This document shows positions 40,025 through 42,753 of a stretch of DNA of 64,000 nucleotides, piece after piece; position 1 is the first letter of the stretch, and each line of letters starts with the position of its first letter. The translations under genes and the position numbers were made by a program. The DNA is from Eledone cirrhosa (lineage: Eukaryota): NCBI GenBank assembly GCA_964016885.1, contig OZ024745.1, positions 125,364,001 to 125,428,000 of the forward strand. Reading direction: 5' to 3'. The notes below the pieces were generated by a model that had not been told where the DNA came from, ran no database searches, and saw only the letters and a program-made list of their open reading frames with translations.

Positions 40025-40184
40025 AACGAAGGAAATGTGGTAAGGAACCAGGTGGACCATAACGCACCAAAGTACTCAATACTTAGGGTAGTAGAGTGGG
40101 TAATAAGAACCAGTAAGACCCCGACGGCTGAATTAGCCGTCGAAACGGCTTGAGCTCAGCCGTCGGGGTCTTACTGGTTCTTAT
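40025..40184. mobile_element. Short TA-embedded element with a Y-shaped terminal hairpin, copy 1
   Basis: An ~80-bp unique arm shared with 42581-42660, then a perfect outer stem ataagaaccagtaagacccc / ggggtcttactggttcttat enclosing two small hairpins. Confidence 0.85.
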
Positions 40185-40457
40185 ATATATATATATATAT
40201 ATATATATATATATATATATATATATATATATATATATGTATATATATAGTAATAATAATAAATTAGAAAATCCCGTTAAGGGTGAAAGCAGCGATTCTT
40301 TGCTTAAAATTTAATCTGTTATTTTAATATATATATATATATATGATGGCTGCCCCCTCGTAATCGAGTATGGCCATTGCACAATATACCATTATTAATA
40401 ATTAATAATTAAGTCTATCGTTCAATGCCTGTGCGTGGAGATATTTTTTAAAGTGAC

Positions 40458-40625
40458 GAAAGACTGTGCACTGAGCCAATCCCACTCTCTGAGCGACAGT
40501 AACTATAACTCGAAAAGAAGAAAAGATCAACATCATCGGTAACTATTAAGCCGCAGGTTTTATATCGGAGTTATCCCAGTTTCCTGGGTTCCCTTCTCCT
40601 AGAAGAATGCCGTGACAAAGGCTAT
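40458..40625. repeat. Dispersed repeat, unclassified (second copy ~53773-53934)
   Basis: aagactgtgcactgagccaatcccactctctgagcgacag...ttctcctagaagaatgccgtgacaaag is shared between the two loci. Confidence 0.75.
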
Positions 40626-40836
40626 AATATATATATATATATATATATACATATATATATATATATATATATATATATATATATATATATATATATATAT
40701 ATATATATATATGTAGGAGGTGAGTTTTATTGTAGCACCATAAAGCAATGCAAATATCGGATAAGTAGCACACTACAGTTTGTAGGAGTGGAGTATAAAT
40801 AATATAATATCAAAAGATGGTTAAAAGAGTTCCAAG

Positions 40837-40907
40837 TATTTTATTATGCGCATTTCAAAAACAAATATCATCATGGGGTGATATCAACGTTTTCATCAGA
40901 TAAAATA
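40837..40907 (-). ncRNA. Minimal type-I hammerhead ribozyme in a probable PLE pLTR remnant
   Basis: Minus strand: uauuuuau CUGAUGA aaac...uuu GAAA ugcgca UA auaaaaua. Stem I is 8 bp and stem III is palindromic (UGCGCA). Confidence 0.85.
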
Positions 40908-41654
40908 GGGATACATGATATGAAGCTTAAAAAACACTTGTGAATAGTGAAGTTTTAAATCAACATATGAAAAATAATTTAAGATTGATGTATAAGATTG
41001 GGAACCATCTATCTTGTTTGTAATTGATCTTTCGGGTGCTTTAACTTTCATGGACAACAGTATTCAAGGTGGAGTCAGGCAAAAGTGGAGAAGAGAAGGA
41101 TAACAGTGTGGATATCTCTCGACTGGAAGGTTATGAGAATCCAGGAAAACATTATGCGGGCCATGTTAATTTTGCTGTTTATATGAGTGGCCCATATATA
41201 TACATATATATATATCTATATGTATATATGTATATGTGTGTATATATATATATGTTTTTCTACTTCCCGTGTCTCGGGTTATTTATTCCGTTAAAGAGGG
41301 TGCCGGATAATCGTTTCCTTCCAACAACCTGTGGAACTGGTTGGTGTGAGTAACACCACTCATTGGATCGTTGCATTTATCTCTTATCCGCTTAATCTCG
41401 TTTGAGATATATCCTCTCTTATCTCAGTTAGGAAGGACAAACTATATTCACACACACACACACACACACACACACACACACACACACACACACACACACA
41501 CACACACACACACACACACACACACACATATATATATATATATATATATATATATATATATATATATATAAAGGATCGATCGAATTTCGTCAAATCGGAC
41601 CGAGGAAACAATGTTTCCGTTGGTCTTTCTAGTTGCTATTACTATCTATCGGTC

Positions 41655-41782
41655 GCAACTCCAGGTAGAAGGAGCAACGTGAAATAAAGCGTCTGGCTCA
41701 AGGACATAACGCATCGCCCAGTCCAGGAATCGAACTCACAACCTCAAGACTGTGAATCCAATTCTCTAACCACTCAGCCACA
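41655..41782 (-). mobile_element. Family-B CORE-type SINE head
   Basis: Reverse complement of tggctgagtggttagag...gagttcgattcc...ccttgagccagacgctttatttcacgttgctcc. Confidence 0.75.
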
Positions 41783-41837
41783 CACACACACATATATATA
41801 TATACACACGCACACATACACACACACACACTTTTAT

Positions 41838-42277
41838 GTATTTGTTCTGCAAGTTTCTTTATGTAACATCGTGTGTTGAAACTGATATTGTTATATGTTG
41901 CTCTGATTGCTGGAATTAGCTATTTGCTGGATGTTCGCCCTGGTGTTAGCTTCTAGGTTCATGAATAGTCAATCTCCGGGTAGGTTTCACCACTATATTG
42001 ATATCAACATAGCGAGAGTACATGGCTATGGCTATAGAGGTCTCAGCTAAGTGTTATTTGAGTCTCTTGTTCCACCACACTATGAAGAGATTGGCCACAT
42101 CGCCAGTCATTTTGACGCTGATAGCCGCTCCATCTTCTTGGATGTATGTTGTATTATTGAACTCAAACACATGACCCTTTAGGGTAGTTTAAATACCGCA
42201 TGTGCCATCATTTTTATCACTTGGTTGTGATTTCCGTGGGTCCGTATGGCTCTAGTCCACCGTCTTCATCTTTCCAA
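41838..42277 (-). pseudogene. PLE RT core fragment joined to the family terminus
   Basis: The minus strand reads HVFEFNNTTYIQEDGAAISVKMTGDVANLFIVWWNKRLK*...MYSRYVD-INIVV (the motifs before and at YxDD). 41838-41895 is the reverse complement of the terminus at 59535-59595. Confidence 0.75.
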
Positions 42278-42296
42278 ATATATATATATATATATA

Positions 42297-42487
42297 ACTG
42301 TTTCTACTTTTGGCACAAGGCCAGCAATTACCCCAGTGTATTACTGGTACTTTATTTTATCGACCCCGTAAGGATGAAAGGCAAAGTTAACCTCGGCGGG
42401 ATTTGAACTCAGACCATGAAGGGCCGTAACTCTTTACTGCAAAGCATGGCGCCCGACCCTCTACCGATACTGCCAATCCACGGCCCT
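42297..42487 (-). mobile_element. Family-A SINE
   Basis: Full reverse-complement copy. Confidence 0.88.
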
Positions 42488-42580
42488 TATATATATATAT
42501 ATATATATATATATATATATATATATATATATATATATATATATATATATATATATATATATATATATATATATATATAT

Positions 42581-42753
42581 AACGAAGGAAATGTGGTAAG
42601 GAAGCAAGTGGACCATAACGCACCAAAGTACTCAATACTTAGGGTAGTAGAGTGGGTAATAGGAACGAATAGGACCCCGACGGCTGAGCTCAAGCCGTTT
42701 CGACGGCTAATTCTGAGTCCAGAATTAGCCGTCGGGGTCCTACTCGTTCCTAT
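42581..42753. mobile_element. Short TA-embedded element with a Y-shaped terminal hairpin, copy 2
   Basis: Same unique arm as copy 1. Outer stem ataggaacgaataggacccc / ggggtcctactcgttcctat. The interior is inverted relative to copy 1. Confidence 0.85.

What the first reader, a model, noticed from the sequence alone, without database searches (positions are those of the whole stretch)
40025..42753. TA-embedded mini-element with a Y-shaped hairpin in flip/flop isomers: a hammerhead lacking its CUGANGA box
Seen in the sequence: two copies (40025-40184 and 42581-42753) share an ~80-bp arm in the same orientation, then a ~20-bp outer stem enclosing two inner hairpins. The copy 1 interior is [gacggctgaattagccgtc] gaaa [cggcttgagctcagccg] tc. 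The copy 2 interior is its reverse complement, with a longer second ear: ga [cggctgagctcaagccg] tttc [gacggctaattctgagtccagaattagccgtc]. Outer-stem differences between the copies are mirrored on both arms (aagaaccagtaag/cttactggttctt vs aggaacgaatagg/cctactcgttcct). The junction has GAAAC..GUC with three stems, exactly like a type-I hammerhead, but no CUGANGA. Established: flip/flop hairpin interiors are the signature of parvoviral rolling-hairpin termini, and PLE pLTRs carry hammerheads and often insert with inverted partial copies. Inference: this is either a non-autonomous hairpin-ended element that isomerises during replication, or PLE/retrozyme 3' ends whose snap-back priming repeatedly deletes the ribozyme core at the repeated gacggct/agccgtc motif.
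Basis: partly seen in the sequence, partly recalled or inferred. Interest (0 to 1): 0.8.

Follow-up and report, generated by a model that had tools for sequence, protein, structure and literature searches.

The report
Head-to-head stubs of a Penelope retrotransposon
The two hairpins belong to a family of over 35,000 short, mostly head-to-head copies of one end of a Penelope-like jumping gene, not virus-style flip/flop ends, and their stopping points likely record where the element's RNA starts and where its self-cutting RNA (a hammerhead ribozyme) cuts.

Summary
The sequence description is right; the flip/flop reading is not. The arm occurs 35,635 times in the genome. Copy 1's junction occurs 9 times and copy 2's deletion 284 times, and 70 of 71 sampled short interiors differ.

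Longer copies run into a 717-aa telomerase-like RT plus GIY-YIG ORF bearing the motifs of the TA-targeting Hydra clade of Penelope-like elements (PLEs). The 80-bp arm is the PLE 'tail'. The parent holds a whole type-I hammerhead whose first box is UUGANAA (U3-A8), not CUGANGA; the stubs keep only its 3' half.

Arms stop preferentially at two places. The main stop is a conserved TTYAGT inside loop II, followed by a non-parental C, as after a capped RNA start. The second is exactly the predicted GUC cut, about 9-fold over a control site. The stubs are most likely paired run-off cDNAs primed on both strands of a TA repeat. None of 53 ORF-bearing copies begins at the loop-II site, so long copies need a longer (tandem or circular) template. 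No RNA data could test this. Verdict: a new variant of a known element, with indirect genomic evidence on an open question, whether PLE hammerheads cut in vivo.

The parts
39994..40025 (.). (TA)n target, left of copy 1
   Evidence: TRF; tailed ends follow a TA run in 79 of 93 scorable sampled copies
40026..40105 (-). copy 1 PLE 'tail' (80 nt): in intact tandem units it is the start of the 5' leader, following the pLTR; its end abuts a TA in the parent
   Evidence: 96% match to intact unit L201
40106..40131 (-). copy 1 tailed arm, pLTR positions 1-26 (numbered inward from the pLTR end)
   Evidence: joined to the other arm through a 2-nt GA overlap
40130..40181 (+). copy 1 inverted tail-less arm, positions 52-1: 3' half of the hammerhead (stem II 3' strand, GAAA 40142-40145, stem III, predicted cut after C40164, stem I 3' strand)
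40182..40249 (.). (TA)n target, right of copy 1
42488..42581 (.). (TA)n target, left of copy 2
42582..42661 (-). copy 2 PLE tail (80 nt)
42662..42715 (-). copy 2 tailed arm, positions 1-54: intact 3' half of the hammerhead
   Evidence: 94% match to L201 over 140 nt
42716..42750 (+). copy 2 inverted tail-less arm: starts at position 58 (the modal stop, A of TTYAGT) and lacks the 23 nt between the two AGCCGTC repeats (GAAAC and stem III). The G at 42715 could belong to either arm
42751..42770 (.). (TA)n target, right of copy 2

Best explanation
Each hairpin is a short insertion of a Hydra-type Penelope-like retrotransposon, made of two head-to-head copies of the same element end, likely formed when the element's protein nicks both strands of a TA repeat and primes two cDNAs that run off a nearby RNA 5' end and are then joined. 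Shown: the parent, the two fixed outer ends (tail end and pLTR end, each next to a TA in the parent), the variable inner junction, and the two preferred stops. Inferred: (1) the main stop (position 58, A of a conserved TTYAGT in hammerhead loop II, followed by an added C) is a capped transcription start. The RNA 5' end would then carry only the ribozyme's 3' half, which explains the 'missing box'. (2) The second stop (position 17) is the U3-A8 hammerhead's own cut. (3) Long and tandem copies come from longer templates (tandem read-through or circularised RNA). The apparent flip/flop is two independent rare junctions in one palindrome family.
For: Parent: tailed copies run on into a 710-aa ORF and carry inverted 3' copies 514-1,912 bp long. 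Intact tandem units of about 3.53 kb show ORF-3'UTR-hammerhead-tail-ORF. The model's best PDB fold matches are telomerase RTs; the top homolog carries Pfam GIY-YIG. Ribozyme: 5,858 hits for the 5' box; the first 100 listed are 75 U3-A8, 23 C3-A8, 2 U3-G8, 0 C3-G8, with N7 free (hand count). The MFE is a hammerhead three-way junction. Stem II has 3 pairs with double changes over 28 copies. Stops: the tailed arm ends at 58 in 17 of 100 (the mode) and at 45-65 in 62 of 100. After 58 the next base among the first 100 of 4,391 non-A hits is C 49, T 11, G 40 (15 parental); at positions 60-62 C is 0 of 43 departures. At the cut site 47 of 100 listed of 1,582 hits are true junctions against 9 of 100 of 921 at a control site, about 9-fold; there C:T is 7:16 against 37:11 at 58 (p 2e-4). 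Precedent: two internal RT starts bound the tail and both strands are nicked and extended (PMC11167929); capped RNA gives a first added dC and uncapped mostly one added base (PMC6885630).
Against: None of 53 ORF-bearing copies that reach the pLTR begins at 48-66; 50 carry the whole ribozyme upstream, 2 end at 13-21 and 1 at 41. A start site at 58 is therefore not the 5' end of the templates of long copies, and an extra assumption is needed. That sample is biased to one young subfamily. No RNA reads were available: the single RNA run laid 0 contigs. No downstream promoter element matches at +28 to +33 (consensus recalled). The ribozyme's folding energy is not unusual (z -0.13), and whole-structure covariation is modest and confounded by kinship. 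In vitro, a Poseidon PLE used uncleaved RNA and no reads ended at its cut site (PMC11167929). Tallies are hand counts of the first 100 listed hits on one contig. Stops spread over 50-65, not one base.
Confidence: 0.72

Rival explanations
1. Same PLE origin, but the stops are RT pauses at RNA structure or bound protein (foot of stem III; loop II), and the inverted arm forms by snap-back of one cDNA rather than by a second priming.
For: Arms of one copy usually match in subfamily: 49 of 66 share 16 or more of 17 bases against 7.4 on shuffling. 16 variants are mirrored on both arms against 190 on one arm. Position 17/18 is also the base of a GC-rich stem. No long copy starts at 58.
Against: Zero-loop and one-base joints with both arms ending at 58 or both at 17 cannot be fold-back loops. 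The tail-less arm ends at a fixed site that is also used by direct 3' ends (L204). The added base differs between the two stops. Stops at 17 are enriched in one subfamily with the same stem III (32:15 against a baseline of 11:80). A few copies have arms of different subfamilies (e.g. L048, L050).
Confidence: 0.17
2. The stubs are a self-propagating non-autonomous retroelement: each keeps an internal promoter from +1 onward, is transcribed into the TA flank, and is re-inserted by the PLE protein, which regenerates a new junction each time. This can hold alongside the best explanation.
For: Short copies outnumber long ones (8 of 100 tailed copies are long). Some CpG-type variants are mirrored on both arms. 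It would explain why long copies never start at 58. Penelope has an internal promoter (PMC2377424).
Against: In the Poseidon element the protein needed RNA about 55 nt beyond the RT start sites (PMC11167929), which stubs lack. No clonal expansion of any junction is seen: the 9 copy-1 junctions lie in two subfamily backgrounds and both orientations.
Confidence: 0.2
3. A non-autonomous hairpin-ended DNA element that isomerises between two fixed flip/flop forms by parvovirus-like rolling-hairpin replication.
For: The two window interiors are reverse complements apart from 13 nt. The copy-1 junction occurs in both orientations, 7 and 2.
Against: The two forms are 9 and 284 hits against 35,635 arms. 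70 of 71 interiors differ. Only 3 of 74 sampled palindromes are asymmetric in this way. The long partners encode RT and GIY-YIG; no Rep-like ORF was noticed in the six long loci translated (output partly cut; no dedicated Rep search was run).
Confidence: 0.01

Closest known systems
Hydra-clade PLEs (Craig et al. 2021, PMC8557442), e.g. Hydra-1_Obim
   Same: RW[KR], DKT, CxCX5C linker, CxxC..E..N..CxH, C-terminal GIY-YIG, (TA)n target, 3' hammerhead with an extra base after A9, inverted 5' copies. The N-terminal half is colinear by eye with Hydra-1_Obim.
   Different: Unit 3.5 kb with a 1.2-kb 3' UTR (published ones mostly under 3 kb). All Hydra hammerheads in file S2 have CUGANGA and short loop II; this one has U3-A8, a loop II of about 30-45 nt and a 5-6 bp stem III. 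Tail 80 nt rather than 30-40. Over 35,000 mostly stub copies.
Poseidon PLE of Anolis, in vitro (PMC11167929)
   Same: Two fixed ends bounding a tail downstream of the hammerhead; AT-rich target; both strands extended.
   Different: There the ribozyme cut was dispensable in vitro and not seen in RNA-seq; here genomic junctions pile up at the predicted cut.
U3-A8 minimal hammerheads of Schistosoma Cercyon PLEs (PMC4209133)
   Same: Same core covariation, extra base before stem II, and opposite-strand pairs 100-700 bp apart.
   Different: Those lack stem III and are thought to work as dimers; here stem III is full. No start site inside loop II was reported in the parts read.
L1 twin priming and cap-derived extra G (PMC11702581)
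   Same: Second priming on the opposite target strand; extra G at complete 5' ends.
   Different: L1 inversions use non-overlapping parts of one RNA; here both arms copy the same segment.
Parvovirus/AAV flip-flop termini (recalled)
   Same: Superficial Y-shaped palindrome.
   Different: No two fixed isomers, RT parent, genomic TA-embedded copies.

Membership tests
Penelope-like elements (EN+) | single ORF with telomerase-like RT | tested here: met
   717-aa ORF; model pLDDT 93, top Foldseek hits TERT. Pfam and PDB sequence searches found nothing
Penelope-like elements (EN+) | C-terminal GIY-YIG endonuclease | tested here: met
   VIY..YIG motif after the linker; best homolog has PF01541; the query itself has no Pfam hit
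Penelope-like elements (EN+) | tandem/inverted pLTRs with a tail on one end | tested here: met
   L204 shows inverted pLTR, direct pLTR with tail, ORF, pLTR
Hydra clade | RWK and DKT motifs; CxCX5C linker; CxxC/CxH around E and N | tested here: met
   RLRWR, SDKTG, CNCPDRSIC, CNLC..E..N..CKH against the definition in PMC8557442 section 11
Hydra clade | insertion into (TA)n | tested here: met
   79 of 93 tailed ends and 63 of 74 tail-less ends abut TA
Hydra clade | groups with Hydra RTs in a phylogeny | not tested
   no tree built; published sequences compared by eye only
Hydra clade | canonical CUGANGA hammerhead (as listed for all members in file S2) | tested here: not met
   0 of 100 listed have C3-G8; a U3-A8 core stands in its place. 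A described trait of members, not of the RT clade definition
Type I hammerhead ribozyme (parent) | three stems around core boxes with a 3-8 pair, GAAA and NUH | tested here: met
   the 3-8 pair is standard in 24 of 28 aligned copies
Type I hammerhead ribozyme (parent) | self-cleavage after NUH | not testable with these tools
   indirect only: junction excess at the site; no RNA reads
Type I hammerhead ribozyme (window copies) | both core boxes present | tested here: not met
   5' box absent in both copies; copy 2's right arm also lacks GAAAC
Parvoviral rolling-hairpin termini | two fixed flip/flop isomers near 1:1 | tested here: not met
Non-LTR retrozymes | short non-coding tandem units each with a whole hammerhead | tested here: not met
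   stubs are dispersed and hold half a ribozyme; the tandem units encode the ORF; definition from bioRxiv 10.64898/2026.07.22.740005 part 1

The most novel reading that the evidence does not exclude
The PLE promoter starts inside loop II of its own hammerhead, so the capped mRNA begins with half a ribozyme and escapes 5' cleavage. Priming at the RT starts near that cap yields tens of thousands of abortive head-to-head stubs, while productive long and tandem copies need RNA cut by the U3-A8 ribozyme and circularised or read through a tandem. The stub junctions would be a genome-scale fossil record of both RNA ends and evidence that a PLE hammerhead cuts in vivo.
Probability: 0.4. Interest if true: 0.72.

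Novelty: new variant of a known kind. Interest (0 to 1): 0.5.

Why it matters
What PLE hammerheads do, and how inverted and tandem pLTRs arise, are stated as open in PMC4209133, PMC8557442 and PMC11167929. This family is young and intact (many identical 784-codon frames), and its stubs mark two candidate RNA 5' ends at single-base resolution. It also has a built-in control: U3-A8 and C3-A8 subfamilies differ in how often arms stop at the cut site. That gives direct predictions for CAGE, RNA-end mapping and an in vitro assay. Descriptors that require CUGANGA would miss about 5,900 ribozyme copies here, and repeat annotators could misfile the stubs as foldback elements.

Tried and rejected
A DNA search of the genome with the arm returned nothing because common words are skipped; patterns were used instead. 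Rfam found no hammerhead. Pfam and PDB sequence searches did not recognise the protein.

Expression: one RNA run with a 0.06 share laid 0 contigs; all runs were contigs, so ends cannot be seen. A DNA run's depth falls steeply just upstream of the loop-II site and beyond the tail; this agrees with the stub picture but is not a copy number, and the run may be the assembly's source. Two other organisms' runs hold parts of the element but none spans the 5' box usefully.

Splice acceptor at TTTAG as the cause of the 58 stop: rejected, because the bases beyond the added C are heterogeneous, not a constant exon. Naiad clade: rejected, because the endonuclease is C-terminal. Full-length copies starting at 58: tested and not found.

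One search was aimed at the young subfamily but hit a CpG-decayed class (449 hits); it gave C 12, T 3 after position 58 in 100 listed. Earlier scan findings: none. Paper searches showed no description of this family or of a start site inside a PLE hammerhead; most results were seen as listings only. The 2017 paper on dimeric PLE hammerheads (recalled) is not held and may bear on novelty, as may Repbase/Dfam entries, which could not be searched.

Full report
Observation. The two copies lie at 40026-40181 and 42582-42750 between TA runs. The interior of copy 2 is the reverse complement of that of copy 1 plus 13 nt, the outer-stem differences are mirrored, and CTGANGA is absent on both strands. 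The window lies in a 3.0-Gb animal-type assembly; the organism was not determined.

The family. A 19-mer of the arm has 35,635 exact hits (control 0). I fetched the first 100 listed, all on contig C1, and aligned each to real long copies. Positions below count inward from the pLTR end, the first G of the stem. Of the 100, 74 have an inverted second arm in view (71 short, 3 long), 3 have an unrelated distant arm and were set aside, and 23 have none in view; 8 of 100 run on for more than 400 bp. Interiors are heterogeneous: 70 distinct among 71. The copy-1 junction occurs 9 times genome-wide, 7 in one orientation and 2 in the other, in two subfamily backgrounds. It is a tailed arm of 26 joined to an arm of 52 through a GA overlap. 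The copy-2 feature is a 23-nt deletion between two AGCCGTC repeats. It occurs 284 times, on either arm and also in long copies, with varied central junctions in the 30 inspected. Two fixed isomers do not exist.

The parent. Long copies continue through about 1.2 kb of 3' UTR into an ORF on the strand opposite the arm. A protein search scored 150 of 8,560 candidates, many with identical 784-codon open frames and some in tandem arrays of about 3.53 kb. In an intact unit the order is ORF, 3' UTR, hammerhead, pLTR end, 80-nt tail, 5' leader, ATG. Both the pLTR end and the tail end are followed by TA in the parent, matching the target. The 717-aa protein has 2,049 homologs at E below 1e-20 among 8,000 scored. 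Its model (pLDDT 93) matches telomerase RTs best. It carries RWR, DKT, CxCX5C and CxxC..E..N..CxH, the Hydra-clade signature in PMC8557442 section 11, and is colinear by eye with Hydra-1_Obim. No tree was built.

The ribozyme. Read in sense, the parent has stem I, UUGANAA, G plus an extra base, stem II with a long loop, GAAA, stem III, GUC and stem I; its MFE has this topology though the energy is unremarkable. The 5' box pattern has 5,858 hits; the first 100 are 75 U3-A8, 23 C3-A8, 2 U3-G8 and no C3-G8, with all four bases at position 7 (hand count). A divergent subfamily (15 hits) keeps the box and changes stem II on both sides. Over 28 chosen copies, 87.7% of cells pair and 3 stem-II pairs show double changes; shuffles reach the number of such pairs in 425 of 500, and kinship inflates the other measures. 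A U3-A8 core is already described in Schistosoma PLEs (PMC4209133). All Hydra hammerheads in file S2 of PMC8557442 are CUGANGA.

Why the stubs lack the box. Arms stop inside loop II: 62 of 100 tailed arms and 57 of 74 tail-less arms end at 45-65, the tailed mode being 58 (17 of 100). Position 58 is the A of TTYAGT, conserved in 23-28 of 28 per column while most of the loop varies; it resembles the invertebrate initiator (consensus recalled). After an intact arm of 58, 10,961 hits have the parental A next and 4,391 another base. Among the first 100 of the latter I count C 49 (12 explainable as direct joins to the other arm), T 11 and G 40 (15 parental for one subfamily, 7 mirrors of C). Six loci have a C added on both arms. 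Among the first 100 of the former, about 45 continue as parent, and 0 of 43 departures at 60-62 are C (p below 1e-9). MMLV RT adds dC first on capped RNA (PMC6885630 section 7), and full-length L1 insertions carry an extra G (PMC11702581 passage). I infer a capped start at 58.

A second stop at the cut site. Arms departing right after position 17 number 1,582, of which 47 of the first 100 are true junctions and the rest point changes or indels. Eight loci have both arms ending there with one to five bases between. At a control site four bases away, 9 of the first 100 of 921 are junctions, so the excess is about 9-fold. The added base there is mostly A or T (C 7, A 24, T 16), unlike position 58. 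One subfamily, whose long copies seen here are U3-A8, gives 32 of the 47 though it is 11 of 91 in the baseline; the other, which includes C3-A8 copies, gives 15. An RT pause at the foot of stem III is the alternative.

Result against the simple reading. If mRNA starting at 58 templated full-length copies they should begin there. Of 70 ORF-bearing loci, 3 lacked the anchor, 14 end before the pLTR and 53 reach it; of these 50 carry the whole ribozyme upstream, 2 end at 13-21, 1 at 41 and none at 48-66. Long copies therefore come from longer-than-unit templates, as proposed for circular PLE RNA (PMC4209133). The sample is dominated by one young subfamily.

Mechanism. Shown in vitro for a Poseidon PLE: both target strands are nicked and extended, and RT starts at two internal sites that bound the tail (PMC11167929). 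Applied here by inference, one strand primes at the tail end and the other at the pLTR end, both cDNAs run to the nearby RNA 5' end, and they are trimmed and joined head to head. Arms usually share a subfamily (49 of 66 against 7.4 shuffled), compatible with one source locus or with co-active subfamilies; a few are discordant. Zero- and one-base joints argue against snap-back. No RNA evidence could be had.

What was read. PMC11167929 parts 1-2 of 4 plus passages; PMC4209133 parts 1-2 of 4; PMC2377424 parts 1-3 of 4; PMC8557442 passages, section 11, supplement parts 1-2 of 59 and search hits; bioRxiv 10.64898/2026.07.22.740005 part 1 of 5 (supplements closed); PMC6885630 abstract and section 7; passages of PMC11702581, PMC13282606 and PMC5888575 (the last two added nothing). 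Parvovirus termini and the initiator and DPE consensus are recalled.

Verdict. Not a flip/flop element. It is a very abundant Hydra-type PLE family with a U3-A8 hammerhead. The kind is known, but the stub junctions give indirect, testable evidence for a start site inside the ribozyme and for cutting in vivo. Interest 0.5.

Noticed in passing
window 60968-61882 (+): Frameshifted fragment of another Hydra-type PLE ORF (RLRWR, SDKT; 37-48% identity to the parent protein).
   Followed up: partly
window 42771-43420 (+): Open frame resembling the C-terminal part of a LINE reverse transcriptase (RTE-like; label recalled) directly after copy 2.
   Followed up: no
window 39814-39958 and 42333-42477: 145-bp inverted pair, 92% alike, of a SINE-like repeat that recurs beside many fetched loci.
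   Followed up: no
window 51224-51711; L074:5630-9232: A 45-bp tandem repeat resembling the head of that SINE-like repeat; a 3.6-kb array in L074.
   Followed up: no
L201:1756-1956: The reading frame is open for 67 codons upstream of the first ATG, from stem III through the tail, in many copies; possible non-AUG start or chance.
   Followed up: no
L201 stem III loop; window 40151-40156: Loop III holds the palindrome GAGCTC across subfamilies, and stem III could pair between two RNAs; a possible way to bring two templates together.
   Followed up: no
L105, L121, L122: A subfamily with a C3-A8 mismatch core (23 of 100 listed) has still amplified; a natural control for ribozyme function.
   Followed up: partly
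L026 (G000:C1:5866376-5869394): A 45-base arm runs directly into the 3' end of a different Hydra-like PLE, suggesting a template switch between families.
   Followed up: no
L048, L050, L029: The two arms of one stub carry different subfamily-diagnostic bases, suggesting two RNA templates or later conversion.
   Followed up: partly
L075:6414-8336 (-): An unrelated PLE with RT and a YIGET-type GIY-YIG, broken by one frameshift.
   Followed up: no
L015; L149: Variants with the tail on both arms, or on neither, also occur.
   Followed up: no
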